Virus record (IMG/VR): IMGVR_UViG_3300032007_000018
Span: 72,445 to 136,444 of that record
DNA from: a virus
Length of the DNA stretch: 64,000 bases
Direction: 5' to 3' (one strand)
The translations under genes and the position numbers were made by a program. Positions 36,141 to 50,410 of this stretch are shown one piece after another. The first letter of the stretch is position 1. Every line of letters starts with the position of its first letter. The notes beneath the pieces were generated by a model. The model saw only the letters and a list, made by a program, of their open reading frames with translations. It searched no databases and was not told the origin of the DNA.

Positions 36141-36400
36141 TCCTCTGCATAATTATTCATTTTCCGGCGGCGCGCTCACGGGCCTGGCGCGCCGACTTTC
36201 ACGCGCTAAAGTGCTAAAGTAATAAAAATTTGGATTATCACGCTTTCGCACGTTAAAGTATTAATTCCCGAAAGTAGTCCATCGCTGGACTATCCAAGAG
36301 TGGCGAAGATTGTTAAAAAAAAGATTATTAAAAAAGGGGTTGACACCCGGGCGATTGTGTGCTATACTGTTACCAGAGTTAAGGAAAGGAGATAACCACC

Positions 36401-36850: not shown

Positions 36851-36929
36851 ACGCCCCGCAAAAATAATGCTTGACAAATCAATGAATATATGCTATAATA
36901 CAAATAGAAAATGAAAAGGAGATAAAAAA

Positions 36930-37127
36930 ATGAGAGATATTAACAGAATTATGCCGCTGATGGAACAGCTCGGCAATGTTTGGGAGCAGTTTCCCGACCT
37001 GCGCTTTATGCAGTTCATCGTCAACTTCCAGTCGTGGCTCGGCTCCGATGGCTTCTATATGGAAGATGACAAATTGATCGAGAAGATTTGCGAGTTCGCA
37101 ACCGAAATGAGAAAGGGGTACTTCTAA
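36930..37127 (+). CDS. Early small protein
   Basis: Track ORF. Promoter TTGACA 36871 / TATAAT 36894. Confidence 0.55.
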   Translation: MRDINRIMPLMEQLGNVWEQFPDLRFMQFIVNFQSWLGSDGFYMEDDKLIEKICEFATEMRKGYF

Positions 37128-37393
37128 TGGCTATCACAATCAAGCGCGAAAAGAACAACCGCGGCGTTCCTCTGCGCGGTCTGCGAGTTGGCGAAACTTT
37201 CCTATATGACAACCGCGTGGGCGTAGTGGTCGAGCGCAATGGGCATCAGTTCTATCTTGACCTGACCACCTGCCACAACTTCCGCAAAAGCAATGACCTG
37301 CGGTGGGACACTTATTACAAAAACAGCGAGCTTGACCCCGATACCCTTGTCCTGCCTGTGGAAATTGAACTTACTTACAAGGTCGTGGGCTAA
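37127..37393 (+). CDS. Early small protein (88 aa)
   Basis: TAATG overlap with the upstream gene. It is the C-terminal part of track ORF 37088..37393. Confidence 0.5.
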   Translation: MAITIKREKNNRGVPLRGLRVGETFLYDNRVGVVVERNGHQFYLDLTTCHNFRKSNDLRWDTYYKNSELDPDTLVLPVEIELTYKVVG

Positions 37394-37496
37394 GCCTGCG
37401 ACCTTTGGCCCGGGCGGCGCGAAAAAAATTTAATTTTATGCTTGACATTTGCTTACACCTGTGGTATATTAGTTATAGAAAGAGAGGTTGATTGAA

Positions 37497-37619
37497 ATGC
37501 GTGATTACTTCAAGCGTATTCGTTGCAAAGGTCGGTATTGCCGCTATGAGATTACGAACAAAACTGTTCGTAGCGTGGCAAAGAATGAAACTAAAAAGGA
37601 GATGGCGAAACGTGGATAA
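37497..37619 (+). CDS. Small basic Cys-containing protein (40 aa), tentative
   Basis: SD GAGAGG, 7 nt, ATG. Promoter TTGACA 37442 / TATATT 37465. An alternative overlapping frame is track ORF 37492..37761. Confidence 0.3.
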   Translation: MRDYFKRIRCKGRYCRYEITNKTVRSVAKNETKKEMAKRG

Positions 37620-37761
37620 GGAACTGAAAGCCTATCGGCAGAAAATGAGCGCAGAAGATTTACAGATGTATCTGCATTTCAAGAAGCGCGGGAGCAAGGT
37701 TGCCGCAAAGAAAGGCAAAGGGTCGTATGACCGCAAGGACTTTAAGAAAGGGGTTGCGTAG
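37609..37761 (+). CDS. Small basic protein, tentative GTG start
   Basis: SD AAGGAG, 8 nt, GTG. It is the C-terminal part of the track ORF. Confidence 0.3.
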   Translation, partial: NVDKELKAYRQKMSAEDLQMYLHFKKRGSKVAAKKGKGSYDRKDFKKGVA

Positions 37762-37762
37762 A

Positions 37763-37957
37763 ATGATGGAATGGCAGAAGAAAATGCTTGAGGGTATGCG
37801 CCTGATGCAGGAAGCCTGCGCCGAGGTCGGTTCTTGGAATGACTGTCGCAAATGCCCTTTTGGTCGGTATTGCGATACGCTCATGGAGAACGATGACATT
37901 GATTCCTTCATGGGATTGCAAGACAAAGAATGGATTGGCGATGAGAAAGTCGATTGA
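37763..37957 (+). CDS. Small Cys-containing protein (64 aa)
   Basis: MMEWQKK... is the C-terminal part of track ORF 37700..37957. Confidence 0.4.
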   Translation: MMEWQKKMLEGMRLMQEACAEVGSWNDCRKCPFGRYCDTLMENDDIDSFMGLQDKEWIGDEKVD

Positions 37958-38157
37958 TTTTTTCAATCGGTTTTTTACTTTGTTCCATTTTTGGCCCGCG
38001 CGGCGACGGTCGCTGGGCAACCGAGGCGCGCGGTATTCGCGCCGGGCGCGCGTTTTCAACAAATTTTGAGCGCCAAGTTTGTTCATAATTACCAGTTGAC
38101 ATTTCCCAAAAGGTGTGCTATACTCTAATTGTAATTTGAAGAAAGGACACCAAACCA

Positions 38158-38820
38158 ATGTATGATTTTGACATTTTCGAGCGATTTATCGTGGTAGATA
38201 CTGAAACCACGAATACGCTTGACGAGCCTATCTGTTATGATGTGGGCTTTGCGGTTGTTGACAGATTCGGCGCGGTTTACGAGAAGTTTTCTTTCGTAGT
38301 TGCCGAAGTGTTCCTTGACCGCGAGTTAATGTCTTACGCCTATTACGCCGACAAAATCGAGCAGTATTGGCAGGACATTAAAGCAGGTCGGCGCAAGCTG
38401 GCGAAATTCTCCACCATTCGGCGCGTTTTCGCTGATGCTTGCAAGCGAAATCAAGTGAAAGTTGTGCTTGCCCACAACGCCCGCTTTGATAACCGCTCCC
38501 TCAATCTGACACAGCGTTATCTGACCGCCTCAAAGTATCGCTATTTCTTTCCTTTTGGCTTGCAAGTATGGGATACGCTGAAAATGTCGCGTGAAGTGCT
38601 GAAAAACGATGATGACTATGGCGCGTTCTGCTACAACAACGACTTTCTGACGCAACGCCTTTGCAAGCAATTTACCGCCGAAGTGCTTTTCCGCTTCATC
38701 ATTGGCGAGATTGATTTTGAGGAATCGCACACAGGGCTTGAAGATGTGCTGATTGAAAAGGAAATTTTTGCCTATCTCATGTGGCGCAAGCCCGAAATCT
38801 GCGGCAAGCTCTGGGGTTAA
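38158..38820 (+). CDS. DnaQ-like DEDDh 3'-5' exonuclease
   Basis: VVDTETT (Exo I), AHNARFD (Exo II), HTGLEDV (Exo III). Promoter TTGACA 38096 / TATACT 38119. Confidence 0.7.
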   Translation: MYDFDIFERFIVVDTETTNTLDEPICYDVGFAVVDRFGAVYEKFSFVVAEVFLDRELMSYAYYADKIEQYWQDIKAGRRKLAKFSTIRRVFADACKRNQVKVVLAHNARFDNRSLNLTQRYLTASKYRYFFPFGLQVWDTLKMSREVLKNDDDYGAFCYNNDFLTQRLCKQFTAEVLFRFIIGEIDFEESHTGLEDVLIEKEIFAYLMWRKPEICGKLWG

Positions 38821-38940
38821 TTACCCTAGGGCAACCGCCCGGGCGGCCGGCAAATTGCACAATCAGCACAAGGAAAAAATCTTATTCTTTGTGTATTTTG
38901 CCTATTGTAATTTTCGTAGGGCTATGCTATACTATAATTG

Positions 38941-39037
38941 TTCCAAGGGAAAGGGAACGCAAGCCGAACCAAGGTCGGGAGAATTGAGAACCATCCGAGG
39001 CCGCTCAAAAAAATCCGAAAAAAAATGAAAAAAAGGC
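38941..39037 (+). ncRNA. Promoter-driven ORF-less structured RNA (about 100 nt). Shares its 5' end with the RNA at 46262.
   Basis: Promoter TTGTAA 38905 / tgcTATACT 38928. Begins AUUGUUCCAAGGGAAAGGGAACGC, with hairpins GUUCC..GGAAC and CCGA..UCGG. No ORF. The next promoter starts at 39038. Confidence 0.4.
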
Positions 39038-39118
39038 TTGACAAATCCCCAAACCTGTGGTACAATAAAATCACAAAAGGAGAGCTGAACTCCACAAACA
39101 GAGAAAGGGTTGATACCA

Positions 39119-39489
39119 TGACCACTTCCAAGACCACCAACAAGACCGCCCTTCAGTTCGCGCTGGACAATCTGCCGAACGCTCCCGCCGATGTGCGCGA
39201 GAAGTGGCAGAAGATGATCGACCAGCTCGACAAGAAGAACGCCGCACCCAAGAAGCTGACCGCCCAGCAGGAGAAGAATGTCGCCATGAGCGGCGAGGTG
39301 CTGGACTTCCTGCTCGACCACGAGGGCGAGGGCTTCACTGTGAGCGACCTGCTCAAGTCTGTGCCTGTCCTTGAGGGCGACAGCAACCAGCACGCCTCTG
39401 CGCTGATGCGTGCGCTTGTGCTGGCTGGCTCTGTGGAGAAGTACACCGACAAGCGGCGCACCTACTTCCGCGCGGTGACTGCCGCGTAA
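39119..39489 (+). CDS. Early protein, paralog family 1 (with 45643 and 59848)
   Basis: Promoter TTGACA 39038 / TACAAT 39061. Shares ...KRRTYF... C-terminus and ATGACC start context with its paralogs. Confidence 0.6.
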
Positions 39490-39649
39490 TCCCCAGCGGC
39501 AGGGGGGGCAATAGCCCCCCCAATTCTTTTACCCTGCCACTTTAATACTTTAGCGCGCGAGCGCGCCCGGGCGACGGTTTACATAATAATTTTCTGCTTG
39601 ACATTTTCCAAAAGGTATGCTATACTATCCACAGAAAGGAGAGATAGCT

Positions 39650-40012
39650 ATGACCGAAAAGGAAATTCTTCACGCGATGAAAACCCTTGACTTGACCCGC
39701 GAAGAAGCGATTGAAATGCTCCAAGAGGATGAAGCAATCGACCGCGGCGCTGACCCGCACCCGCTGACCCCCGAACAGGAGAAAGCAAGTAAAGCGGCGC
39801 GTATTGTCTCTACTGGACCGCGCACCGCCCAAGTAAAGCGAGAGCGCAAGCCGAATGAGGACAAGCGCGAACTGATTGCGGCGATTGAAGAAATGCTGAC
39901 TTACAGCGACATTCAAGCCGAGAGCGTCACCATCACCAACCCCGAGCGTCAAATCGACTTTGAATTCCGCGGCAATCGCTACCGCGTAGTGTTGAGCGCC
40001 CCGCGCAAGTAA
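39650..40012 (+). CDS. Early protein, paralog family 2 (with 42632)
   Basis: Promoter TTGACA 39598 / TATACT 39621. SD AAAGGAGAGAT. Shares LT.EQEK...ERKPN motifs with 42632. Confidence 0.6.
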   Translation: MTEKEILHAMKTLDLTREEAIEMLQEDEAIDRGADPHPLTPEQEKASKAARIVSTGPRTAQVKRERKPNEDKRELIAAIEEMLTYSDIQAESVTITNPERQIDFEFRGNRYRVVLSAPRK

Positions 40013-40100
40013 GCGCGGGGTAATTCGCCCGGGCGCAAGTTAAAAAAATAACTTTTAAAAAACTATTGACATTTAGCGCCCCCTGTGCTATACTAGAGTG

Positions 40101-40440
40101 GCCATTGACCGAGGAACTGTGGAGGGAAGCCAACATCAACCCTGCGAGTACCAAAGAATGTGTGTTGGTGATGATTACACGATGAAGTCGGCCTGCGGAC
40201 AAAAGTTTTCTTAAATGGGAGAAAGGTTATAGATGCAGCAGGAACGATGAATTTTTTAGGCAGTTTGTTTCCTGTCGGTGAAAAGGAAAAAAGACTCCCC
40301 CTTGAGGGGGCGGTGAGCAAAAATGGCAAAAGACTTAGTAGTGAGCGAGCGAGTCTTCAACTCTCAACACGCAAAAGCGAATGGTGAGCCAGAAAGCAAG
40401 AGACGCCCCCAAGAAAGGGTAAAAAAAAATGAAAAACCTA
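40101..40440 (+). ncRNA. ORF-poor transcript of about 340 nt immediately upstream of the tRNA (candidate structured ncRNA or tRNA leader)
   Basis: Promoter TTGACA 40066 / TATACT 40089. No plus-strand ORF in the track. Hairpins CCCCCUUGAGGGGG and AAGACU..AGUCUU. One weak 42-codon ORF ends at a TAG inside the next -35. Confidence 0.35.
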
Positions 40441-40474
40441 TTGACAAATAGCCAAAAGTGTGCTATACTATAAT
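40441..40474 (+). promoter_or_regulatory. Class A promoter driving the tRNA
   Basis: TTGACA, 17 bp, tgcTATACTATAAT, ending 9 nt before tRNA position 1. Confidence 0.6.
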
Positions 40475-40482
40475 CACAACAA

Positions 40483-40558
40483 GGGAATGTAACTCAAATG
40501 GTAGAGTAGCGGATTCTTACTCCGAAGGTTGCGGGTTCAACTCCTGTCATTCCCACCA
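40483..40558 (+). tRNA. tRNA-Lys (anticodon CUU) with encoded CCA
   Basis: Cloverleaf: acceptor GGGAATG/CATTCCC (7 bp); D-arm ACTC-AAATGGTA-GAGT; anticodon stem GCGGA/TCCGA (one G.A); loop TTCTTAC with U33-CUU-A37; variable AGGTT; T-arm GCGGG-TTCAACT-CCTGT; discriminator A, CCA. Confidence 0.75.
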
Positions 40559-40729
40559 ATGTTTCTAATCTCCTTTCTATTCCTCTCTTTCTGTGCAGGG
40601 CGGCTCCTATTGGGGCCGCTTTGTGCGCCCGGGCGGGCGATTGTTAAAAAATAAACTTTTGAAAAAAGTATTGACAAAACGCATCAAAGATGCTATACTA
40701 TAATCACCAAGAGAAAAGGAGATAAAAAA

Positions 40730-40942
40730 ATGTTCAATGATGCTATTCTCGTAGGTCGCAACTGCCCCTTCTGCGGCGAGTACCATGAGGTCATGGTCAG
40801 CGAAGCTGACTATGTCGCGTGGCAGAGCGGGGAACTGGCGCAGAACGCCTTCCCCTACCTCTCCGCCGATGAGCGTGAAATCCTCATCAGCGGCATCTGC
40901 CCCAAGTGCTGGGCAAAAACTTTCGGGGAGGAGGATGAATAA
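40730..40942 (+). CDS. Small Zn-ribbon protein
   Basis: Track ORF with CPFCG...CPKC. Promoter TTGACA 40671 / TATAAT 40699. Confidence 0.6.
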   Translation: MFNDAILVGRNCPFCGEYHEVMVSEADYVAWQSGELAQNAFPYLSADEREILISGICPKCWAKTFGEEDE

Positions 40943-41208
40943 TGAAAGCAACTGGAATTGTGCGCCGACTGGATGACCTCGGACGCATCGTGCTCCCCAA
41001 GGAGATTCGCCGCACTCTCAATGTTCACGAGGGCGACGCAATGGAGATTTGGGTGGATGATGAACACAAGGGCATCGTCCTCACCAAGTACAACTGCGAC
41101 GAAAACGCGGTAACGCTTCTCAAGCAGGCTGCGCAGATGCTGGAGGGCAGCGAGAACGCCGCTTATCGCGACCTTATTTTCCACATCGCATCTAAGCTGG
41201 GGGAATAA
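40942..41208 (+). CDS. AbrB/SpoVT-family (swapped-hairpin) DNA-binding regulator
   Basis: VRRLDDLGRIVLPKEIRRTLNVHEGDAMEIWVDDE matches the AbrB N-domain signature. ATGA overlap with the upstream gene. Confidence 0.7.
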   Translation: MKATGIVRRLDDLGRIVLPKEIRRTLNVHEGDAMEIWVDDEHKGIVLTKYNCDENAVTLLKQAAQMLEGSENAAYRDLIFHIASKLGE

Positions 41209-41343
41209 TTACCCCCAGCTAACCGCCCGGGCAAAAGATTGTTAAAAAATAAACTTTTCAAAAACCTATTGACAAAACAAAAAAGGTATGCTATACTATA
41301 ATCACATTGAGGGTGATGACCGAACATCGAAAGGAGATACAAA

Positions 41344-41673
41344 ATGACTTATCTTGTTAAGAGGGAAATGACAAGAGCGTGGAAGCGTTTTTCAACTTTC
41401 GCATTTCTCGACCAGTACCTGCGCGCCCACGTGGGCGACACTTTCACAGTCCGCGACCTGCGGGCTATCTGCCCCGACATCTGCCCGAACACCGCTGCCG
41501 CTTGGCTGAGCGACTACGCCAGAGCTTTCGGCGTCAAGGTCAGCGTGAGCAATACCTACATCGAACTTGACAAGCCCATCAAGATTGACAGCTGGGGCGG
41601 GCGCGCTGTCTACATTGAGGGGTATAAAGCCCACCTGTACCATGTGGACGCGCTCGACCCCACCTGGGAGTAA
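41344..41673 (+). CDS. Early hypothetical protein
   Basis: Track ORF. Promoter TTGACA 41269 / TATAAT 41297. Leader GGGTGATGACCGAACATCG. Confidence 0.6.
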   Translation: MTYLVKREMTRAWKRFSTFAFLDQYLRAHVGDTFTVRDLRAICPDICPNTAAAWLSDYARAFGVKVSVSNTYIELDKPIKIDSWGGRAVYIEGYKAHLYHVDALDPTWE

Positions 41674-41864
41674 TTCCCACGAGAACATCACCGACATTCA
41701 CGACAGCCCGCTTTTCAAGAGTCTGTTTGGGGAGTAATCCCCAGCGGGCTCTGCCCGGGCGATTCGTCAGAATCAATAAATCCAAAAGCAAAAGTTTGTG
41801 TAACATTCTAAATTGATTTTTATAAAAAATTATGTTATTATAATAATAGAAAGGAGAATGAGAA

Positions 41865-42038
41865 ATGAGATTGTTAATGTTCGTATTTTGTGGGCTTCTG
41901 GCTCTGCGCTTCGTGTGGGACTTCTCCCAAATGTCCAAAAGCAAAGACGCAACAGCCTTTACAAGAGGGTTAATGTCTGCGGCGTTTGATGCCGCTGTGA
42001 TTATCCTGTTTGCAATTATTGAGAAAGGAAGATGGTAA
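41865..42038 (+). CDS. Small membrane protein (57 aa) in an AT-rich islet
   Basis: Class B promoter TTGATT 41814 / TATAAT 41839. SD AAAGGAGAA. Two hydrophobic segments. Confidence 0.45.
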   Translation: MRLLMFVFCGLLALRFVWDFSQMSKSKDATAFTRGLMSAAFDAAVIILFAIIEKGRW

Positions 42039-42039
42039 A

Positions 42040-42516
42040 ATGAAAATGTTGATTATTTTTGCCCTTGCTACTCTTTTGAATGTGGTGCTTGCCACTATCA
42101 AAAGTGTAATGACAATCAAGGGGACTAAAATTTCTGCGGCGGTGTGGAACGCGCTGTCTTTCGGTCTGTATTCCTACATCGTCATTTTGACCGCCACCGC
42201 TGATTTAACCACGCTTGAAAAAGTTGTTGTTACTGTGGTGTGTAACCTCATCGGCGTGTATGGCGTCAAGTGGGTTGAGGAAAAAATGCGGAAAGACAGA
42301 ATGTGGAAATTAGAAATGACTGTGCTTTCTGCCGAAGCGGACACAATGCACCGCGCATTGGAAGATGCTAACATTCCTAATCACTATGTAAACGCAGGGC
42401 GTCACGCCGCTTTCAGTTGCTACTGTGCAACTAAGGCAGACACCGATGCCGCCCTTGCGATTGGTGAAAAGTTTAACGCAAAAACCTTTGCGGCTGAAAC
42501 CCATTTAGCGCCCTAA
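42040..42516 (+). CDS. Membrane protein (about 3 transmembrane helices) with a soluble C-terminal domain
   Basis: Track ORF 42010..42516 with ATG at 42040 (MKMLIIFALATLL...). Co-transcribed with 41865. Confidence 0.55.
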   Translation: MKMLIIFALATLLNVVLATIKSVMTIKGTKISAAVWNALSFGLYSYIVILTATADLTTLEKVVVTVVCNLIGVYGVKWVEEKMRKDRMWKLEMTVLSAEADTMHRALEDANIPNHYVNAGRHAAFSCYCATKADTDAALAIGEKFNAKTFAAETHLAP

Positions 42517-42631
42517 TAGTTTAGGGCGCTAAAGCGCCCGGGCCGCGATTGTTAAAAAACTAACGCAAAAAATCTCTTGACAACTGTTCCAAAGTGTGCT
42601 ATACTGTATTACAGAAAGGGGGATAAAGCAC

Positions 42632-43015
42632 ATGGCAGAAACGCAAAAAGAAAAAATCATGCGCGTTCTGCAAGTGGACAGCCGACAGGCCGATGAAATC
42701 CTTGCCTATGACAAAGCGGTGGAGCGCGGCGAGAAAACACCCTATGACCTCACCGCCGAGCAGGAAAAGGAAGTCCGCAAGTATCGGCAGGCTGAACGCA
42801 AGCCCACGCTTTACAAGTGGGACACCAAAAAGCGTGAGCGTAAACCCAACGCCACAAAAGAGGGAATTGTCGCAGAAATCGCAACTTTTCTCAAAGAAAA
42901 CAGCGATTTTGACACAAAAGATGTGGAAATCACGAACAAAAATCGCGAGATTACTTTCCAAATCTCCGACGATACCTTTACTGTGACACTGGTGCAGAAG
43001 CGCAAGCCCAAATAA
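42632..43015 (+). CDS. Early protein, paralog family 2
   Basis: Promoter TTGACA 42577 / TATACT 42600. SD AAAGGGGGAT. Confidence 0.6.
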   Translation: MAETQKEKIMRVLQVDSRQADEILAYDKAVERGEKTPYDLTAEQEKEVRKYRQAERKPTLYKWDTKKRERKPNATKEGIVAEIATFLKENSDFDTKDVEITNKNREITFQISDDTFTVTLVQKRKPK

Positions 43016-43161
43016 TGCGGAAAAACCGCGGTTTTCGCAAGAAAATCGCGGTTTTTCTAACTTTTTTCGCATTTTTTAACGATTTACTGCGCGAAAGTGC
43101 GCCGCCCGGGTTGATTTTGTAAAAAATTTTTTGTATAATAATAATGTAAGGAAGTGAAAGA

Positions 43162-43413
43162 ATGAATGTGGTAAAGAAAATGGATGACATTGGAAGAATT
43201 GTCATTCCCCAAGATTTGCGGCGTTCATTGCGTTGGATGGGCGGAGATGAAATTGAAATCATTTCAAACAATGATGGAAGTCTTACTTTGCGCAAGCACG
43301 AAAATGATACTGCCAAAAGATTAAAAGAAATAAGTTTGGAATGGTCTAATGACATTGATGTTGAACAGCAATTCACTGAACTAATCAAACTAATTGAAAG
43401 TAAAACAAAATAA
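43162..43413 (+). CDS. AbrB/SpoVT-family regulator (second copy)
   Basis: MDDIGRIVIPQDLRRSLRWMGGDEIEI. Class B promoter TTGATT 43111 / TATAAT 43134. AT-rich islet. Confidence 0.65.
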   Translation: MNVVKKMDDIGRIVIPQDLRRSLRWMGGDEIEIISNNDGSLTLRKHENDTAKRLKEISLEWSNDIDVEQQFTELIKLIESKTK

Positions 43414-43429
43414 CGGAGGAGCCAAAGCA

Positions 43430-43546
43430 ATGTCTATTGAATTGTTAGAAGCCCTAATCTTAATTGTCAAACACTGTTTGGAATCAAACGGTTGCGATGA
43501 TTGTATTCTAAAGGGTTTCTGTGGTAAGTTGCCAAAAGACTGGTAA
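43430..43546 (+). CDS. Small Cys-rich peptide (38 aa)
   Basis: SD GGAGGAG, then ATG. CLESNGCDDCILKGFCG. Confidence 0.35.
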   Translation: MSIELLEALILIVKHCLESNGCDDCILKGFCGKLPKDW

Positions 43547-43716
43547 CCGACACCGGCCGCAGTGCGGTCGAATTTTCACGAGGCAAGCCCTTTGGCTCTT
43601 TTTGTTTTGATTGCCCGGGCCGCAGGTTTACATAATAATTTTCCCGAAAAAAACTGTTGACAAACCGCCAAGAGTATGCTATACTATAATCACCAAGAGA
43701 AAAGGAGATAAATCAA

Positions 43717-44007
43717 ATGGCTACTAGGTATTCTGCGCGTTGGCGCTGGGAGGGTAAGGACAGCGAAAGCATTGCGCTTTTCTCTGCTGATGTTCCGCAG
43801 GAAGTCCTTGTTGACTTCGTGGATTCCCTCTGGGCGAATGCCGCAAACTGGCAGGCTGGCGAGGGCGAAGACATTCGCTGGGTTGACTGCATCGACATGG
43901 AAACTGGCGAGGTCATTGCCGAGCGTTCCGACTGGGACGAACCTGACAACTGCGACGACGATTGCGGCTTCGACCCCTACATGGGTTGCTATACCGATGA
44001 CTGCTAA
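43717..44007 (+). CDS. Early small acidic protein
   Basis: Track ORF. Promoter TTGACA 43657 / TATAAT 43685. Confidence 0.6.
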   Translation: MATRYSARWRWEGKDSESIALFSADVPQEVLVDFVDSLWANAANWQAGEGEDIRWVDCIDMETGEVIAERSDWDEPDNCDDDCGFDPYMGCYTDDC

Positions 44008-44020
44008 GGGGGGTGGAACT

Positions 44021-44167
44021 ATGACCTTGATGCAATGTTATAGTAAAATCATCAGCGAGGTATTCTGGCGCTCCATCTATTTCGGCGTCCCTTTCTCGCA
44101 GGTTTGGCCTCTGCCTGTCATCCTCTGCGTAGCAATCACTGTTTACCACTTCATCACGCGAGAGTGA
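44021..44167 (+). CDS. Small hydrophobic peptide (48 aa)
   Basis: ATG after GGGGGGTGG. It is the C-terminal part of track ORF 43772..44167. Confidence 0.35.
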   Translation: MTLMQCYSKIISEVFWRSIYFGVPFSQVWPLPVILCVAITVYHFITRE

Positions 44168-44261
44168 TGAAGTGGCCCGGGCCAAAATTTTTTTTGAAAA
44201 AGGTATTGACAAATAAACACAAGTATGCTATACTGTATTCAGAAAGTGAGGGATACAGAAA

Positions 44262-44570
44262 ATGAAAAACGAAGTGAAATACAAAGATTATCGCATCGGG
44301 CGTGATGTGTACACTGTAAAACTGACCTATTCTCCGCAAGGTAGCCTTTTCGGCCCTGAAGTGCGTGTGGAAGTGATGAAATGGCATCAGCCGCCCCGCA
44401 ACCTGTGGGAGCGCATCACCGAATGGTGGAAATATTATCTTTCTGGTTGGGTATGGAACCCCGCTTTGACAAATGCTTCGCTTAATGCTTACTGCATTGA
44501 CAAGTGCAACTATGAAGCAGCACAACGCCTCGCAATAGAGAGGGGCGACAAGGAATGGGAGGCTATGTGA
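44262..44570 (+). CDS. Early hypothetical protein
   Basis: Track ORF. Promoter TTGACA 44206 / TATACT 44229. Confidence 0.6.
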   Translation: MKNEVKYKDYRIGRDVYTVKLTYSPQGSLFGPEVRVEVMKWHQPPRNLWERITEWWKYYLSGWVWNPALTNASLNAYCIDKCNYEAAQRLAIERGDKEWEAM

Positions 44571-44611
44571 GCCTCCCTGCCGCCCGGGCGCGATTGTTAA
44601 AAAACTAACGC

Positions 44612-44643
44612 TTGACAATAGGCCAAAAGTGTGCTATACTATA
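44612..44643 (+). promoter_or_regulatory. Representative class A promoter (one of about 34)
   Basis: cTTGACAatag...tgTGCTATACTATAAT. Preceded by a GCCCGGGCG box and an A-tract (GATTGTTAAAAAACTAACG). Confidence 0.6.
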
Positions 44644-44684
44644 ATCACATTGAGGGTGGTGGCCTACACTAAGGAGATTTTTCT

Positions 44685-45311
44685 ATGGAAAAGCACAAAT
44701 TTTTTGAGCGTGAAATCTTGCTTCTTGAAAGTGAAGATTTGCGCGACTTCGCCCGCTGGTATCTTGACAATCATGTGGGCAACTGGTTCTGGAAGTCTGG
44801 CGCGTCCGCAAGTGGGAAGTATCATCCCTCTTTCACTCATGGCGAGGGCGGGCTTGTGCGTCACACTCGCGCGGTGTGTATGGTCTGCGAGGAACTTCTG
44901 CGCATGAGCGGCTACGCATACATGAAAGCGGAATACAAAGACTTTGCGCGGCTTGCCTGCCTGCTCCACGATACGCGCAAGTATGGAAGCGGCGACGAGG
45001 AAGATAAGAGTTATTATCCGCGACATGGTGAAGCCGCCGCAAATGATGTTGGCGTTGCGTGGCGTGAGTTTTTCCACAGTCATTCCTGCCCCGAATTGCT
45101 CTTGATGGCTATTCGCTCCCACATGGGACAGTGGACTGAAAACCGCGATGACCGCCCCTTTACCAACATTGACCGCCTTGTGCATCTGTCGGACTACATT
45201 GCAAGCCGCCCATTTTGGGACATTCCCGAACTGACATCGCAGTATTACGAGGACGCGGCGCGAGAAATTCTTGATGCCCCGCCTGCTGGTATGGTGGACT
45301 ACCCCTTTTAA
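44685..45311 (+). CDS. HD-domain phosphohydrolase
   Basis: KYHP...H...LLHDTRKY motifs. Track ORF. Confidence 0.6.
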   Translation: MEKHKFFEREILLLESEDLRDFARWYLDNHVGNWFWKSGASASGKYHPSFTHGEGGLVRHTRAVCMVCEELLRMSGYAYMKAEYKDFARLACLLHDTRKYGSGDEEDKSYYPRHGEAAANDVGVAWREFFHSHSCPELLLMAIRSHMGQWTENRDDRPFTNIDRLVHLSDYIASRPFWDIPELTSQYYEDAAREILDAPPAGMVDYPF

Positions 45312-45642
45312 TGGGGGTAGTCCGCGCCCGGGCAGCCGGCAAATTGCACAAAAGGGGTCTAAAATTTTAACACTTTTTGTGCAAAATCCCATCTTGCAAT
45401 TTTCTGAAAATCTGCTATAATAATAATTGTCAAGAGGCGGTGGACACCGCAGAACAAAAACGAGAGGCGCGGACAGCGGTGAACAGTGCGGAGCGCCCAG
45501 CCCGAAAAAATTTTTCAAAGAAATTTGAAAAACCTCTTGACAAACAGCGCGAAGTGTGCTACAATAAGAATGTAAGCAAGAGGGAAACAAAACCCCTGCT
45601 AATAAAATGGGTGGTGACCGACACCAGAAAGAGGTAGATACT

Positions 45643-46044
45643 ATGACCAAGACTGAAAAGATGACCAACCGCAAGGCTCTGACCTACTGCATTGACAACT
45701 GCGACCTGCCCGCCGATGTTGCGGAGAAGCTGACCGCCATGGTCGCCGCGCTGGATAAGAAGTCCACCGCCGAGCGCAAGCCCACCGCCAAGCAGGGCGA
45801 GAACGCCACTGTGCGCGCCGCTGTCGTGAAGTTCATCAACGACAACGCCGAGGGCGACGGCTTCACCTGCTCCGACCTTATCAAGGCCTGCCCCGCTGTT
45901 GAGGGCAAGTCCAACCAGTATGTCTCCGCCATCCTGCGTCAGGCGGTGCTGGCTGGCGAGATTTCCAAGGGCACTGTGAAGCGTCGCACCTACTTCGCCC
46001 CTGTGGGCGTCTACGCCACCGCTGACGAGGACGAGGGGGAGTAA
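45643..46044 (+). CDS. Early protein, paralog family 1
   Basis: Promoter TTGACA 45537 / TACAAT 45560. Leader hairpin UGGUGACCGACACCA directly upstream. The track ORF has an upstream extension. Confidence 0.6.
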   Translation: MTKTEKMTNRKALTYCIDNCDLPADVAEKLTAMVAALDKKSTAERKPTAKQGENATVRAAVVKFINDNAEGDGFTCSDLIKACPAVEGKSNQYVSAILRQAVLAGEISKGTVKRRTYFAPVGVYATADEDEGE

Positions 46045-46261
46045 TCCCCCTCCCCTCACAAGGGGCAAGCGCCCCTTTACATGGGCCGTCGGGGGGTCAG
46101 GCCGCGAAAGTCAACGCTTGCCTGTGGCGTTGATAAGTAGTGCCCTTGGGCGGTCGATGTAAGGGGGCGCTTGCGCGCCCGGGTGATTGACAAAAACTTA
46201 ACGAAAATTTTTTTGAAAAAAGTATTGACAAAAGCAGACCTGTGTGCTATACTATAATTGT

Positions 46262-46545
46262 TCCAAGGGAAAAGGGAGCGCGGCGAGGGCTAACAGCGAC
46301 GAGTGGACGCACTTAGGACACCTTGACCGCGCAGGAACATTCAAGGTCGCCACGCGACCAAAAGAGCAAAAGGCAAGATGTGAGAAAGGACGAGCTTACA
46401 ATGGGTTTGCCGATGTGTTATCCTAAGTGGTGGAAGTGACCCACCCGCCAAAAAGAGGTCACCGCCTGTGGCGTCCAAAACCGCAGGTGTTGGATAAGGG
46501 GTCGTTGCCGCGAGGAGTTGCTAACCTTGCGGCAGTCGGCCCGGG
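46262..46545 (+). ncRNA. Promoter-driven ORF-less structured RNA (about 285 nt)
   Basis: Promoter TTGACA 46225 / TATACTATAAT 46248-58. Begins UUGUUCCAAGGGAAAAGGGAGCGC like the RNA at 38941. Stems GGUCGC-cac-GCGACC and UGCCGCGAGG-aguugcuaa-CCUUGCGGCA. No credible ORF; track ORF 46244..46426 starts inside the promoter. Confidence 0.45.
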
Positions 46546-46637
46546 TGATTGTTAAAAAAATAATTAGCAAAAAAGACTTGACAACGACGTAGTTATCTGC
46601 TATACTATAATCACCAAGAGAAAAGGAGATAACTAAA

Positions 46638-46862
46638 ATGTTCAGAGGTTGGTTTGACGATTTGGAAAGGGCAATCGTGGCGTTTCGTGCGCTTGGGATT
46701 GATGACCTGTTTTGCTCCATCAGTGTCAACCTGTATGGCGATTTTGTTTTTGAAATTGCCGAAGGTGTCAAATACTTCGTGAAGCATGACAGCCTTGGCA
46801 ACTACAGCGTGTGGCGCAACTTCGGGGATTGGAGAAATCCCGATTGGAGGGAAATCAAGTGA
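46638..46862 (+). CDS. Early small protein
   Basis: Track ORF. Promoter TTGACA 46578 / TATAAT 46604. Confidence 0.6.
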   Translation: MFRGWFDDLERAIVAFRALGIDDLFCSISVNLYGDFVFEIAEGVKYFVKHDSLGNYSVWRNFGDWRNPDWREIK

Positions 46863-47011
46863 CTGTCAAAGAACTAATCAAAAAGTTGGAAACCATGCCA
46901 CAAAATGTGGAAGTCATTTTTTGGAATGAACAGCCCGAAACATGGTATTCCACTAAGACCTGCGAAATCTCTGTTAATTCGCACACAGGTTATGTCGATT
47001 TTGAAATCTAA
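46859..47011 (+). CDS. Early small protein (50 aa), GTG start
   Basis: GTGA overlap with the upstream stop. C-terminal part of track ORF 46811..47011. Confidence 0.4.
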   Translation: MTVKELIKKLETMPQNVEVIFWNEQPETWYSTKTCEISVNSHTGYVDFEI

Positions 47012-47029
47012 GAAAGGAATCTGATTACT

Positions 47030-47221
47030 ATGACGAACGAACTGAAATGCCCCAAGTGTGGCGGAACGCACATCATGGAAGATGACTGCTATGACGTCAT
47101 CGGCGGAGCGGAAAACACCATCAAAGAACTGATGTGCGGTTGCTGTGAGGACTGCGGTGCTGATGTTCAATGGGAAAGGGTTTATAAATTCATTGGCTAC
47201 GATGGCATCGAGGAGGGCTAA
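47030..47221 (+). CDS. Small Zn-ribbon protein
   Basis: Track ORF with CPKCGG...CGCCEDCG. Confidence 0.6.
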   Translation: MTNELKCPKCGGTHIMEDDCYDVIGGAENTIKELMCGCCEDCGADVQWERVYKFIGYDGIEEG

Positions 47222-47320
47222 GCCCTCTTCGGTCGCCCGGGTCATTGTGAAAAAACTAACGCTTGACAAAATGCCGCTAATGTGCTATACTAAGAGCGTA
47301 AACAGAAAGGGGATAACAAA

Positions 47321-47542
47321 ATGATTGACGAAGAACTTATTTACAAAGCACAGCGTATACTTAATGACAGATGCCTCTGGTGGGAAGATAGCTGGCGCAA
47401 GCTTTCCATAAAAGGTGAAACAGAGGCAAGTGCGCGGTCTGCGGCTCGCGCAAATGCTTATAAATCCGCATGTGATATTCTTCTCGCGGCGGTGCAGGGA
47501 AATAAAGAAGTTTTGAAGGAGTTTGATTACTATGCTGACTAA
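47321..47542 (+). CDS. Early small protein
   Basis: Track ORF. Promoter TTGACA 47264 / TATACT 47286. Confidence 0.6.
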   Translation: MIDEELIYKAQRILNDRCLWWEDSWRKLSIKGETEASARSAARANAYKSACDILLAAVQGNKEVLKEFDYYAD

Positions 47543-47783
47543 AAAGTTTTTCTGCCCTGTGAATGGCTGGGACTGCCCCTACTTCAAAAAGGATGGTTCT
47601 TGCTCCATGATTGACAAGGGGCTTGACCCCGAGGACGAGTGCGACGATGCCGCCTGCTTTTTGGAGGACGAGGATGATTGCCCCTGCGTGTGGGAAGATG
47701 AAAATGGCAATCGCTATGATGTTGATGAACTTCTTGCGCAGGGGTATCGCTTCGCCAATGGTGAGCCTGTGTTAGCCGAGTAA
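47532..47783 (+). CDS. Small acidic Cys-containing protein
   Basis: Track ORF 47523..47783. The ATG at 47532 is the preferred start. Confidence 0.5.
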   Translation: MLTKKFFCPVNGWDCPYFKKDGSCSMIDKGLDPEDECDDAACFLEDEDDCPCVWEDENGNRYDVDELLAQGYRFANGEPVLAE

Positions 47784-47883
47784 ACCTCGGCTAACCTCCC
47801 GGGCGCAAGTTAAAAAAATAACGCTTGACATTTTCGTTTTTGTATGCTATACTATGTATAGAAAACGAAAGGAGATAACAAAA

Positions 47884-48955: not shown

Positions 48956-49071
48956 GCAGGGGGCAACCCCTGCCGCGGCCCGGGCGGTTTACATAATAAT
49001 TTTCTGCTTGACATTTTGAAAAAGGTATGCTATAATCAGTGTAGAAAATGAAAAAGGGAGGGTTTGCTGTA

Positions 49072-49220
49072 ATGACGCTTGATGAGATGAAAGAAAAAGC
49101 CATTGAAAATTTCATCAATGCTTGGGACGAGCTTACGATGCTTGGTCTGATGGTCTGCGACGATGTTACTAAAGAGTACATTGACAAAGACGACATTGAT
49201 GTGCGCGAAGTGGAGGGTTG
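49072..49220 (+). CDS. Last small gene of the GC-rich array (49 aa)
   Basis: Promoter TTGACA 49008 / TATAAT 49031. SD AAGGGAGGG. Confidence 0.4.
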
Positions 49221-49436
49221 ACATAACCCTCCTCGCGCCCGGGTGATTTCGCCGGGCCGCTGACGCAGGCAGCTGGTCCGTTCTTCGCCCCCAAAACACA
49301 TATGCAAATTTTTTCGTCACACGAGTGGCATATGCCGCGATCCCTATTACTCCCGAAACCCCCGGTCGGGGGCCGATACCTAGCATATGGCCTTCCGGCC
49401 TTGACTTTTATAAAAAAATATGTTATAATATAAAAA

Positions 49437-49523
49437 AAAGACATATGCCAGGAGCAGACACACAAACCCCGGCCGGGGCAAGCGCAAAACTAAAAATCCC
49501 AAGCGTCAGCGCAGGGATTTTAT
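49437..49523 (+). ncRNA. Candidate small RNA (about 85 nt) with its own promoter and terminator
   Basis: Class B promoter TTGACT 49401 / TATAAT 49424. Transcript carries hairpin CCCCGGCCGGGG. Intrinsic terminator AUCCC-aagcgucagcgca-GGGAU plus UUUUAU at 49496-49523. Confidence 0.45.
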
Positions 49524-49593
49524 AGTTCAAAATGCCTCGTTTGCTATGCCCTAGCTCCATTGAAATCTAATCAACGTCTTTTTCTCCGTTGGC

Positions 49594-49622
49594 TTGATTT
49601 TCATAAAAAATTTTGATATAAT
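49594..49622 (+). promoter_or_regulatory. Representative class B promoter
   Basis: TTGATTTTCATAAAAAATTTTGATATAAT, then TTATATAGAAAAT, then AAGAGG SD. Confidence 0.5.
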
Positions 49623-49654
49623 TTATATAGAAAATAAGAAAAGAGGTAAACCAT

Positions 49655-50113
49655 ATGAATTATACTAACGACATTCTTATCCGTCTACAGCACGGCGAGG
49701 ATGTAAACACAATCGCAACCGAACTCACCAAGAGCATCAACGATGCCAACAACCGCTATAAGGCGGAGATTGAGGCCAAGAGAAAGGCAGAACAGGAAGC
49801 CAAGCTCAAGGCCGCCGCAGAGGAGGCCGAGCGCAATGACAAGGTTAAGGCGTGCGAGGATCTGCTCGACGCATTCTATGCGATAGTCGTAGCCTGGGAG
49901 ATTGATAGCGACCTGCTAGATGAAATCGAGCACTATGACGCGGCCGAACTCGCCTCTCAACTGGATGATATCATCCCTGCCATCCAGAAGTGGGCAGAAT
50001 TGGTGGATATGCTGCGCGCGGACGATGAGTTGCGGCCGACCCCGGTCGGGGACAGCTCTGTGAAGAAAGCATCCAGTCCCATTGAAGAGTTTTTGAATAA
50101 GTACGTGCGATAA
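49655..50113 (+). CDS. Coiled-coil hypothetical protein
   Basis: Track ORF. Followed by a strong terminator. Confidence 0.6.
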   Translation: MNYTNDILIRLQHGEDVNTIATELTKSINDANNRYKAEIEAKRKAEQEAKLKAAAEEAERNDKVKACEDLLDAFYAIVVAWEIDSDLLDEIEHYDAAELASQLDDIIPAIQKWAELVDMLRADDELRPTPVGDSSVKKASSPIEEFLNKYVR

Positions 50114-50121
50114 TAAGTAAA

Positions 50122-50160
50122 AAGAAAAACCCCCTAGACTAATGTCTAGGGGGTTTTATT
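50122..50160. terminator. Bidirectional rho-independent terminator
   Basis: AAAAACCCCCTAGAC-taat-GTCTAGGGGGTTTT between convergent genes. Confidence 0.75.
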
Positions 50161-50200
50161 ATTTGTATTATAAACGATGACGGTCACGGAGAAACGAACA

Positions 50201-50410
50201 TCATATTTGACACCGGTCGGGGGCACGCAAACTCCACTCAAAACATCTTTCTCTGGCTGGAATTGCTATTCTCATATTCCTATACTTCATTAATTTTTTA
50301 TACATATCATATGCTGTTTTATTCGCAAACAAATGACCTTGGTATCTGTATACTTTATTTTCCCCACACCAAGGAATTATACGCTTAAGCTGGCATCGAT
50401 TTCGTCCCAT
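50201..50410 (-). CDS. Small hypothetical protein
   Basis: Track ORF. Confidence 0.4.
   Translation of the reverse strand: MGRNRCQLKRIIPWCGENKVYRYQGHLFANKTAYDMYKKLMKYRNMRIAIPARERCFEWSLRAPDRCQI

What the first reader, a model, noticed from the sequence alone, without database searches (positions are those of the whole stretch)
49437..49523. Self-contained candidate sRNA (promoter, about 85-nt transcript, intrinsic terminator) at the module junction
A class B promoter at 49401-49429 is followed by a transcript containing CAUAUGCCAGG and a CCCCGGCCGGGG hairpin, then a canonical terminator at 49496-49523. The upstream junction, 49300-49400, contains several CATATG-centred palindromes (GGCATATGCC at about 49331, AGCATATGGCC at about 49384) that could pair with the sRNA 5' end. 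It also contains CCCCCGGTCGGGGG hairpins (49364), repeated at about 50041 and 50213.
Basis: seen in the sequence. Interest (0 to 1): 0.55.

Follow-up and report, generated by a model that had tools for sequence, protein, structure and literature searches.

The report
Orphan early promoter, not conserved sRNA
The promoter is real and strongly conserved in related uncultivated gut and rumen phages, but the 85-base RNA drawn behind it is not conserved: its hairpin is one copy of a repeated 8-base DNA box and its terminator exists only in this phage, so the stretch is better read as the untranslated start of a regulated tandem-promoter region than as a small-RNA gene.

Summary
This includes a near-consensus sigma-70 promoter (P1, 49401-49429), CCCCGGCCGGGG (49467-49478), a hairpin with a short U-run (49493-49521), four clustered CATATG sites and four CCCCGGYCGGGG-like sites. 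I compared about 20 related phage loci, whose neighbouring 152-aa protein is 25-79% identical. P1 is 85-95% identical to the window in seven closer relatives, and it always lies in a gene-free gap upstream of a second promoter (P2) for that gene. The proposed RNA body is the least conserved part of the region (24-52% identity). Its predicted fold shows no covariation. The terminator hairpin is found only in this phage. The 5' CAUAUG is not conserved. No antisense target in the window exceeds chance. The "hairpin" is an instance of a DNA box, CCGRYCGG, made of two inverted CCGR half-sites. The box is about 14-fold over-represented in these phages. In six related loci it sits at a fixed distance from P1. 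It is even kept inside the neighbouring gene through Val/Ala/Thr codon choice. The best reading is a conserved early control region with tandem promoters and operator-like boxes, in which an 85-nt RNA would at most be a lineage-specific attenuated leader. What binds the boxes is unknown.

The parts
49253..49280 (+). Hairpin H1 (CGGGCCGCUG-ACGCAGG-CAGCUGGUCCG), at the start of the conserved noncoding region
   Evidence: It folds at -15.9 kcal/mol. RNAalifold on 14 relatives keeps only this helix, and 5 of its 7 pairs show compensatory changes.
49293..49336 (.). Most conserved non-promoter block, AAAACACATATGCAAATTTTTTCGTCACACGAGTGGCATATGCC, carrying two CATATG boxes 30 bp apart
   Evidence: It is 77-100% identical to the window in 7 relatives. 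A pair of CATATG sites 28-36 bp apart recurs in most of the related loci, including distant ones.
49362..49369 (.). Box 1, CCGGTCGG (extended palindrome 49359-49372), centred about 70 bp upstream of the P1 start
   Evidence: One or two boxes lie upstream of P1 in most related loci.
49384..49389 (.). CATATG box immediately upstream of the P1 -35 element, followed by the small hairpin GGCC-UUCC-GGCC (49389-49400)
   Evidence: -7.0 kcal/mol. A CATATG at this position is conserved in L007, L013, L016 and L018.
49401..49441 (+). Promoter P1: -35 TTGACT (49401-49406), TG-extended -10 TATAAT (49424-49429), A8 run (49432-49439), then GA. The start is about 49436.
   Evidence: It matches 11 of 12 consensus positions with an upstream TG. 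It is 85-95% identical across relatives, spacer included. It is the only copy in the window.
49442..49483 (+). 5' part of the candidate RNA, containing CATATG (49442-49447, not conserved), CCAGGAGCA (49448-49456), box 2 and GCGCAA
   Evidence: Identity to the window is 26-83%. The only invariant positions in 8 relatives are AAAAG, GC at about +19-20, a C at +28, the core of box 2 and CGCA.
49469..49476 (.).
   Evidence: It lies 67-68 nt from the start of the -35 element in the window, L007, L013, L014, L016 and L018, although the intervening sequence differs. The outer C-G pairs are broken in 5 of 8 relatives.
49493..49521 (+). Lineage-specific hairpin with a U4 tail (AAAAUCCC-AA-GCG-UCAG-CGC-A-GGGAUUUU): a weak terminator or attenuator
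   Evidence: It folds at -12.3 kcal/mol, z = -4.5. It is absent in all other relatives. Helix cells are 48% paired in relatives.
49594..49654 (+). Promoter P2 (-35 TTGATT 49594-49599, -10 TATAAT 49617-49622) with the conserved 5'UTR TTATATAGAAAATAAGAAAAGAGG
   Evidence: Searches place P2 57-71 nt upstream of the start codon in all related loci. Identity to the window is 73-93%.
49655..50113 (+). Conserved 152-aa early gene of unknown function, an all-helical coiled coil, with in-CDS box 3 (CCGGTCGG) at 50042-50049
   Evidence: It has 24 homologues at 47-100% identity and no Pfam family. The predicted structure is helical, pLDDT 79. The in-CDS box is kept in 9 of 10 close relatives through PVG, PAG or PTG codons.
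50126..50157 (.). Strong bidirectional intrinsic terminator that ends the gene
   Evidence: 14 pairs; -25.2 kcal/mol.
50213..50220 (.). Box 4, CCGGTCGG, inside a conserved noncoding block that follows the terminator
   Evidence: A box lies 91-230 nt after the stop codon in 13 of the 21 loci mapped. The block AACGATGACGG...CCGRYCGGGGCCAC is shared with distant relatives.

Best explanation
Positions 49437-49523 are the untranslated first part of the transcript made from P1. P1 is the upstream member of a conserved pair of host-type (sigma-A / sigma-70) early promoters, P1 and P2. Both lie in a conserved noncoding control region of about 430 nt (49222-49654) in front of a conserved 152-aa early gene of a TAG-recoded, uncultivated phage.

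The 'CCCCGGCCGGGG hairpin' is not an RNA structural element. It is one of four copies of an 8-bp DNA box, CCGRYCGG, made of two inverted CCGR half-sites. One copy sits at about -70 and one at about +37 relative to the P1 start. A third lies inside the gene and a fourth lies after its terminator. CATATG boxes accompany them.

My inference is that these boxes are operators for an unidentified dimeric DNA-binding protein. That protein would control P1, and perhaps P2, by acting as a roadblock or by looping DNA between the flanking boxes.

The hairpin with U4 at 49493-49521 is a feature of this lineage only. It may stop part of the P1 transcripts, giving an RNA of about 85 nt, while the rest read on through P2 into the gene. 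Any such short RNA is an attenuated leader, not a conserved trans-acting sRNA.

Shown by the data: the promoter and its conservation; the absence of coding; the lack of conservation and covariation in the RNA body and terminator; and the statistics, fixed spacing and half-site behaviour of the box. Inferred: protein binding, looping or roadblock, and partial termination.
For: - P1 matches 11 of 12 consensus positions with an upstream TG. It is 85-95% identical to the window in relatives whose neighbouring protein is 49-77% identical at the DNA level.
- P2 with its own conserved 5'UTR sits 57-71 nt before the start codon in all related loci. The promoter pair as such is therefore conserved.
- The candidate body is 26-83% identical to the window (5' part) and 24-52% identical (terminator part), the lowest values in the region.
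- The window's fold shows no covariation: 58% of cells paired against 56% in shuffles, with 63 of 500 shuffles reaching the observed value.
- No equivalent terminator exists in any of the 16 other loci examined.
- The CCGRYCGG box occurs 4 times in the window, all within 860 bp, against 1.08 expected.
- There are 180 distinct box instances in 785 kb of related loci, against about 13 that I expect from base composition (my own estimate).
- The bases flanking the box are complementary in only 20-31% of instances, which is chance level. The box is therefore a sequence motif, not a stem.
- The central dinucleotide counts are AT 139, GT 31, AC 25 and GC 13. Two independent CCGR half-sites would give 133, 67 (GT and AC together) and 8. 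Other central dinucleotides occur 3-15 times, apart from CC/GG, which belongs to a different motif.
- Box 2 keeps a distance of 67-68 nt from the start of the -35 element in six loci, despite different intervening sequence.
- The in-CDS box is kept in 9 of 10 close relatives while the encoded residue changes among Val (GTC), Ala (GCC) and Thr (ACC), three of the four codons the box allows.
- No antisense target in the window exceeds chance.
- Rfam finds nothing at 49437-49523.
Against: - No binding protein has been identified. The neighbouring proteins have no recognisable DNA-binding domain, and the 152-aa protein is a coiled coil with no fold match.
- The roughly 35 other early promoters in the window carry no such boxes. 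A general early-promoter repressor is therefore unlikely, and the locus may have a single-copy function of another kind.
- P2 alone looks sufficient to express the gene, which leaves P1's role unexplained.
- Promoters of the P1 type (A-run start) are almost never gene-proximal. Of 108 distinct examples, 3 are followed directly by a gene. This may mean they are dedicated to noncoding transcripts.
- L146 and L147 lack box 2.
- No expression data exist.
Confidence: 0.5

Rival explanations
1. P1 drives a genuine, independent short noncoding RNA. In this reading, A-run promoters of this type are dedicated to noncoding transcripts in this phage group. Each lineage ends the RNA differently: at the 49493-49521 hairpin here, and at weak hairpins overlapping the T-rich -35 region of P2 elsewhere. 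The RNA, or the act of making it, has a regulatory role. Possibilities are interference with P2, a decoy or sponge, or a short transcript that awaits antitermination as lambda 6S RNA does.
For: - Of 108 distinct A-run promoters in related contigs, only 3 are directly followed by a gene. 64 are followed first by another promoter (median 90 nt) and 41 by neither.
- P1's initial transcribed sequence (A8-GAC) is conserved and differs from the P2-type 5'UTR.
- The window hairpin is statistically real (z = -4.5).
- Small hairpins followed by TTGAYTTTT precede P2 in L013, L014, L016, L030, L090 and L029.
- The region is noncoding in all relatives.
Against: - The RNA body is mosaic, with no conserved sequence beyond short boxes and no covariation.
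- Nine relatives have no terminator-like structure at all between P1 and P2.
- The P2-overlapping hairpins are weak: -6 to -10 kcal/mol with 10-11 nt loops, and -0.8 kcal/mol in the window.
- Tandem arrays such as L055 have no hairpins between the promoters.
- No target exceeds chance.
Confidence: 0.25
2. The locus works at the DNA level as a single-copy site, such as a replication origin, a partition site or a packaging-related site. The CCGRYCGG and CATATG boxes would bind an initiator-type protein. The very A+T-rich promoters would supply transcriptional activation or an unwinding element. T7 (tandem promoters 1.1A/1.1B plus an A+T-rich stretch) and T4 (promoter plus unwinding element) have origins of this design, as I recall from the literature and did not check here.
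For: - The boxes are confined to one 860-bp locus in the 64 kb and are absent from the roughly 35 other early promoters.
- One box lies inside a coding sequence and one lies beyond the terminator, which is odd for simple promoter control.
- Two palindrome types cluster with two 40-50 bp stretches that are almost entirely A+T.
- The locus sits where transcription converges.
Against: - There is no replication evidence. GC skew in the window follows gene orientation only.
- No initiator, helicase or partition gene is recognisable nearby.
- The box spacing (107, 573 and 171 bp) is wide for iterons.
- The A+T-rich stretches are perfect extended -10 promoters, and the same promoter type occurs in many other contexts.
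Confidence: 0.15
3. The stretch is evolutionary debris. It would be an orphaned promoter and ribosome-binding site (AGGAG at 49451-49455) left after a small gene was lost, or a decayed copy of the 3' end of the 152-aa gene, with a chance hairpin.
For: - AGGAG has no start codon after it.
- The spacer is mosaic and fast-evolving.
- The region around box 2 resembles the in-CDS box region at first sight.
Against: - P1 and its orphan state are retained in the same position in relatives down to about 30% protein identity.
- The family profile scored against all six frames of both intergenic regions gives only negative scores.
- The boxes keep a fixed spacing.
Confidence: 0.05

Closest known systems
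Tandem strong early promoters of virulent phages (T7 A1-A2-A3, T5 early promoters) and bacterial P1-P2 pairs
   Same: Two or more near-consensus host-type promoters lie in series upstream of an early gene. The upstream promoter gives a long untranslated leader. In some relatives there are arrays of three or four (L055, L039).
   Different: - P1 has its own conserved start region (A8-GAC) that differs from that of the gene-proximal promoter.
- P1 is flanked by conserved palindromic boxes.
- Read-through from P1 into the gene has not been shown.
- The comparison with T7 and T5 rests on my own knowledge of the literature.
Operator pairs that flank a promoter and repress it by DNA looping (gal operon OE/OI with GalR; lac O1/O3)
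   Same: Two copies of a short inverted-repeat box bracket P1 at about -70 and +37, which is 107 bp apart in the window and L007 and 121-123 bp apart in L013-L018. This resembles the roughly 114 bp between the gal operators. The half-site degeneracy behaves as expected for binding by a dimer.
   Different: - No repressor is identified.
- The box spacing does not keep helical phase between lineages.
- Further boxes lie in the CDS and after the terminator.
- Some relatives lack the downstream box.
- Membership in any repressor-operator family could not be tested.
Lambda pR'-6S RNA-tR' unit (a strong promoter makes a short terminated transcript until an antiterminator acts)
   Same: A strong promoter is followed by a short noncoding transcript and a hairpin terminator, at a junction between gene modules.
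   Different: - The terminator is weak and private to this lineage.
- What lies downstream is a single small early gene with its own promoter and a strong terminator, not a late operon.
- No Q-like or N-like protein and no conserved RNA hairpin (nut or put type) was found.
Trans-acting phage or bacterial sRNA genes with a promoter, a structured body and an intrinsic terminator
   Same: The layout in this one sequence: promoter, about 85 nt, then a hairpin with a U-run.
   Different: The body and the terminator are not conserved. There is no covariation, no Rfam match and no complementarity above chance.

Membership tests
Sigma-70 / sigma-A promoter | -35 TTGACA-like and -10 TATAAT-like hexamers 16-18 bp apart, optionally with a TG extension | tested here: met
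   TTGACT-17-TATAAT with an upstream TG, 11 of 12 positions. It is conserved across relatives.
Sigma-70 / sigma-A promoter | Demonstrated transcription start | not testable with these tools
   No transcript data are available. The start at about 49436 is inferred from the position of the -10 element.
Intrinsic (Rho-independent) terminator | An uninterrupted G+C-rich stem with a short loop, directly followed by a U-run | tested here: inconclusive
   - The stem is 3+3 G-C pairs with a 2x1 internal loop, extended by A-U pairs.
- The tail is A-UUUU-AUAG.
- It folds at -12.3 kcal/mol overall, with a core of -7.5 to -8.6 kcal/mol.
- The consensus scan did not call it.
Intrinsic (Rho-independent) terminator | Conserved presence at the same place in relatives, if it is functional | tested here: not met
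   It is absent in all 16 other loci examined. The segment is 24-52% identical to the window.
Conserved structured sRNA gene | Conserved sequence, or a secondary structure supported by covariation | tested here: not met
   58% of cells are paired against 56% in shuffles. Two pairs show a change on both sides, which equals the shuffle mean. The sequence is mosaic.
Conserved structured sRNA gene | Noncoding: no conserved ORF | tested here: met
   No gene is called in the gap in any relative. The ATG at 49445 is not conserved.
Conserved structured sRNA gene | Match to a described RNA family | tested here: not met
   Rfam gives nothing at the gathering threshold. The permissive E-value scan gives nothing overlapping 49437-49523. 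The sub-threshold hits pile up on the terminator at 50126-50157.
Antisense or base-pairing sRNA | Complementarity to a target beyond chance | tested here: not met
   The longest perfect complement in the window is 11 nt. In 300 shuffles, 169 give a match of 11 nt or more. The proposed CAUAUG pairing is a 6-nt self-complementary site and is not conserved. Only the 64-kb window was searched.
Palindromic operator for a dimeric DNA-binding protein | An inverted-repeat sequence box, over-represented and with position conserved relative to a promoter | tested here: met
   The evidence is the half-site independence, the fixed spacing of 67-68 nt, and the retention of the box inside the CDS.
Palindromic operator for a dimeric DNA-binding protein | An identified cognate protein and demonstrated binding | not testable with these tools
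   No DNA-binding domain was found in the neighbouring proteins.
Phage replication origin | Initiator-binding repeats next to an A+T-rich unwinding element, with replication starting there | tested here: inconclusive
   Repeats and A+T-rich stretches are present. No initiator gene is present, GC skew is uninformative, and no replication data exist.

The most novel reading that the evidence does not exclude
The A-run 'orphan' promoter P1 and the CCGR half-site and CATATG boxes may together define a previously undescribed, single-copy noncoding control locus. It would be shared by a large clade of uncultivated, TAG-recoded gut and rumen phages. It could be a transcription-activated origin or a switch in which short non-conserved transcripts from dedicated noncoding promoters matter through being made rather than through their sequence. 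Upstream of P1 there would be a separate structured RNA element: hairpin H1 plus the conserved boxes, which has its own promoter in distant relatives.
Probability: 0.25. Interest if true: 0.6.

Novelty: new member of a known kind. Interest (0 to 1): 0.33.

Why it matters
- For the sRNA claim itself, little follows. An 85-nt RNA private to one lineage is at most a leader by-product.
- The surrounding locus is more useful. It gives a defined, testable cis-regulatory vocabulary for a large group of phages that have no cultured member and almost no annotated proteins. That vocabulary is two promoter classes, an 8-bp box with clear half-site logic, and CATATG boxes.
- The boxes could be used to fish for the binding protein, to recognise this phage group in metagenomes, and to study how early transcription is organised in phages that switch genetic code between early and late genes.
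- The box kept inside a coding sequence through Val, Ala or Thr codons is a clean example of a DNA signal constraining a protein.

Tried and rejected
1. Close homologues for covariation. The contigs that carry the identical protein (L001-L006) are 100% identical over 1.8 kb and give no information.
2. Protein-seeded locus searches in IMG/VR and JGI metagenomes found nothing, and the exact 20-mer of the candidate is absent from IMG/VR. Relatives came instead from exact-protein look-ups and from two DNA-pattern scans.
3. Cultured phage relatives: none by DNA or protein.
4. Genome-collection hits to the CATATGCAAATTTTTT block (L139-L142) are chance matches with no homology beyond the 21-mer, so they allow no host inference.
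5. Small-protein reading. The 26-aa ORF from ATG 49445 has no SD and its start is not conserved. It ends in TAG, which this phage appears to read through in late genes, but that does not rescue it.
6. Pseudogene remnant of the C-terminus of the 152-aa gene. This was suggested by TPxG-like translations at all four boxes. It was rejected because a profile search of all six frames gave only negative scores. The resemblance comes from the DNA box itself.
7. RNA-hairpin reading of the box. Rejected because the flanks are not complementary and the outer pairs break in relatives.
8. Structure prediction and a PDB fold search of the 152-aa protein, done to find a DNA-binding or initiator fold. The protein is a helical coiled coil with no significant match.
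9. Literature search for CCGATCGG in phages found nothing relevant.
10. A supposed repeated junction motif, GCCCGGGCGGTTTACATAA, occurs only once in the window at up to 3 mismatches.

Full report
**Context.** The window comes from a large uncultivated phage.
- The identical sequence lies on a 155.5-kb JGI contig and a 103.9-kb ENA contig.
- The minus-strand late region at 1-28775 is open only if TAG is read through. An example is a 3060-codon frame at 1389-10571.
- The plus-strand block at about 29-50 kb uses the standard code. It is packed with small genes, each behind a near-consensus sigma-70-type promoter.
- The finding lies in the 434-nt gap between a 49-aa ORF (49072-49221) and a 152-aa gene (49655-50113). 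That gene is the last of the plus-strand block. It is followed by a strong bidirectional terminator (50126-50157) and then by convergent genes.

**Observation.** The sequence features are there.
- P1 is TTGACT-17-TATAAT with an upstream TG at 49401-49429, followed by ATAAAAAAAAGAC. The start is therefore about 49436.
- CCCCGGCCGGGG lies at 49467-49478.
- A hairpin at 49493-49521 reads AAAAUCCC-AA-GCG-UCAG-CGC-A-GGGAUUUU. It folds at -12.3 kcal/mol with z = -4.5.
- That hairpin is not a canonical terminator. The G+C part is 3+3 pairs split by an internal loop, with a core of -7.5 to -8.6 kcal/mol. Only four U's follow, and they are themselves paired to the A-run. The consensus scan did not report it. 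The gene terminator at 50126-50157 folds at -25.2 kcal/mol.
- Four CATATG sites lie within 149 bp (49299-49447), after 18 kb with none.
- The four CCCCGGYCGGGG-like sites are the only ones in the 64 kb, against 0.04 expected.

**Relatives.**
- The 152-aa protein has 23 homologues at 47-79% identity.
- Exact-protein look-ups gave loci L007-L016 and L143-L148.
- A scan for the conserved block CATATGCAAATTTTTT gave two IMG/VR contigs.
- A scan for the P1 -10 element plus A-run gave more than 120 metagenome contigs. Fourteen of these carry distant homologues of the protein (25-58% identity) directly downstream.
- In every relative, gene callers leave a gap of 430-810 nt in front of the gene.

**What is conserved and what is not.**
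- Aligning the gap and measuring identity to the window block by block in seven relatives gives:

| Block | Identity to the window |
|---|---|
| P1 | 85-95% |
| Block with two CATATG sites (49293-49336) | 77-100% |
| P2 plus its 5'UTR | 73-93% |
| CDS | 49-77% |
| Candidate, 5' part | 26-83% |
| Candidate, terminator part | 24-52% (lowest in the region) |

- The window's predicted fold was imposed on eight relatives. It is 58% paired against 56% in shuffles, reached by 63 of 500 shuffles. There are no more double-sided changes than in shuffles. The outer pairs of CCCCGGCCGGGG are broken in 5 of 8 relatives, and the terminator helix is 48% paired.
- A search for a hairpin plus T-run between P1 and P2 finds one at mid-spacer only in the window. 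L144 has one about 40 nt before P2. Six loci have a weak hairpin overlapping the T-rich -35 region of P2. Eight loci have nothing, and L147, at 76% protein identity one of the closest relatives for which upstream DNA was recovered, also has nothing.
- The CATATG at the 5' end of the RNA is absent in most relatives. The 26-aa ORF it would start is therefore absent too.
- In L029, L032 and L090, P1 lies only about 80 nt from P2.
- The longest perfect antisense match of the candidate elsewhere in the window is 11 nt, which is what shuffled sequences give.
- Rfam finds nothing here, even at permissive thresholds.

**The 'hairpin' is a DNA box.**
- Across relatives, what persists at the hairpin position is the core CCGRYCGG, not a stem.
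- In 785 kb of related loci there are 180 distinct instances. My estimate from base composition is about 13.
- The flanking bases are complementary in only 20-31% of instances, which is chance.
- Among CCGNNCGG sites the centres are AT 139, GT 31, AC 25 and GC 13, while other centres occur 3-15 times. CC and GG belong to a different motif.
- That distribution fits two independently degenerate, inverted CCGR half-sites. With A at 0.8 per half-site the expectation is 133, 67 (GT and AC together) and 8.
- Both orientations of the asymmetric variants occur at the same site in different relatives. This is expected for recognition of double-stranded DNA by a dimer.
- Box 2 keeps a distance of 67-68 nt from the start of the P1 -35 element in six loci whose intervening sequences differ. 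One or two boxes lie upstream of P1. A further box lies 91-230 nt after the stop codon in 13 of the 21 loci mapped.
- The box inside the gene (50042-50049) is kept in 9 of 10 close relatives while the encoded tripeptide changes among P-V-G (GTC), P-A-G (GCC) and P-T-G (ACC). These are three of the four codons the box allows.
- An early idea was that the boxes are remnants of duplicated gene ends. It fails a six-frame profile search.

**P1 as a class.**
- Of 108 distinct promoters with this -10 element and A-run in the fetched loci, 3 are followed directly by a gene. 64 are followed first by another promoter (median 90 nt). 41 are followed by neither within 260 nt.
- Many are followed by GAC plus a T-run, which forms an A8-GAC-T6-8 inverted repeat. 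Some stand in arrays of three or four.
- P1-type promoters are therefore typically upstream or 'orphan' promoters. This is the main argument left for a noncoding-RNA role.

**Interpretation.**
- The best-supported reading (confidence about 0.5) is a conserved early control region with tandem promoters P1 and P2 and operator-like boxes flanking P1.
- The candidate stretch is the untranslated start of the P1 transcript. The hairpin with U4 is a private, probably partial, attenuator.
- The operator, looping and roadblock function is inferred from the statistics and the geometry. The box centres lie at about -70 and +37 and are 107 bp apart.
- No binding protein was found. The neighbouring proteins have no recognisable domains. 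The 152-aa protein is a helical coiled coil without a fold match.
- Three rivals remain. A dedicated short noncoding transcript whose sequence is unimportant has confidence 0.25. A DNA-level single-copy site such as an origin has 0.15. It is suggested by the confinement of the boxes to this one locus and by boxes lying in the CDS and beyond the terminator. Debris has 0.05.

**Comparison with known systems.**
- The layout resembles tandem early promoters of virulent phages and operator pairs that bracket a promoter, as in gal. In this one sequence it superficially resembles the lambda pR'-6S-tR' unit or an sRNA gene.
- Membership as a conserved sRNA fails on conservation, covariation, terminator conservation and target complementarity. 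Membership as a sigma-70-type promoter is met. Operator status is met at the sequence level only.

**Verdict.**
- The interpretation as a self-contained sRNA is only partly supported. A noncoding start is supported, but a conserved functional sRNA is not.
- The element is a new member of a known kind, a phage early regulatory region. Its box grammar is unusually clear and its binding partner is unknown.
- Interest is 0.33.

Noticed in passing
window 1-28775 (minus strand), e.g. 1389-10571: The late region is open only if TAG is read as a sense codon (genetic code 15-like). A 3060-codon frame and a continuous series of long frames appear only with TAG read-through. The 29-50 kb plus-strand block uses the standard code and has a much higher G+C content, about 48% against about 33%. 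No suppressor tRNA lies in the window, only tRNA-Lys(CTT).
   Followed up: partly
window 31621-47853 (+ strand): About 30 near-perfect promoters, TTGACA-17-TATACT/TATAAT and all with an upstream TG, occur roughly every 500 nt, about one per small gene. The one at 40441-40469 sits directly in front of tRNA-Lys (40483-40558), so some of them drive RNA genes.
   Followed up: no
window 49253-49280 and 49237-49400; L090, L032, L056, L022, L132: Hairpin H1 has 5 of 7 pairs with compensatory changes in 14 relatives. In distant relatives, H1 and the following conserved boxes (CATATGCAAAATTT..., TTTCCCGAAA, CCGRYCGG) lie directly behind their own consensus promoter. This part upstream of P1 may therefore be the 5' end of a separate noncoding transcript. 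In the window it follows the 49-aa ORF.
   Followed up: partly
window 50042-50049 inside the CDS 49655-50113: The CCGRYCGG box inside the gene is kept in 9 of 10 close relatives while the encoded residue changes among Val (GTC), Ala (GCC) and Thr (ACC). A DNA signal appears to constrain the protein sequence.
   Followed up: yes
window 50168-50228; L018 5935-6000; L029, L056, L064 downstream regions: A conserved noncoding block follows the gene terminator: AACGATGACGGTCACGG, then 25-35 nt, then CCGRYCGGGGCCAC. In L018 it is followed by degenerate TTTCACA/TTATCACA repeats. Its function is unknown.
   Followed up: no
L019-L138 (metagenome contigs), e.g. L055, L039, L046, L105: Promoters of the form TATGTTATAATAT(A/T)AAAAAAAGAC, often continuing into a T-run (an A8-GAC-T6-8 inverted repeat) and then CCGC, are widespread in gut and rumen contigs. 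They are rarely gene-proximal (3 of 108). They sometimes stand in tandem arrays 60-70 nt apart.
   Followed up: partly
L003 start (window 49411), L006 end (window 49014); L013, L143, L039, L055, L018 ends: The short-read contigs L003 and L006 break inside the promoters at 49401-49429 and 49008-49036. In several relatives the contig ends within 0-1100 nt after the 152-aa gene. This suggests repeated promoter sequence and strain-variable DNA at this junction. Genome ends were not tested.
   Followed up: no
window 49389-49412 and 49575-49605; the same positions in relatives: Small G+C hairpins sit immediately before or overlap the T-rich -35 regions (TTGAYTTTT) of P1 and P2 in many relatives. This looks like compact terminator-promoter cassettes. 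They are weak: -7.0 kcal/mol before P1 and -0.8 kcal/mol before P2 in the window.
   Followed up: partly
window 33578, 37410, 38835-38839, 40629, 41223, 43102, 44580, 48980: A second G+C motif, CCGGGCGG/CCGCCCGG, recurs in the early block. The example at 48980 lies in the intergenic stretch just after a gene end, within GCCCGGGCGGTTTACATAA. The longer 19-mer is unique in the window.
   Followed up: partly
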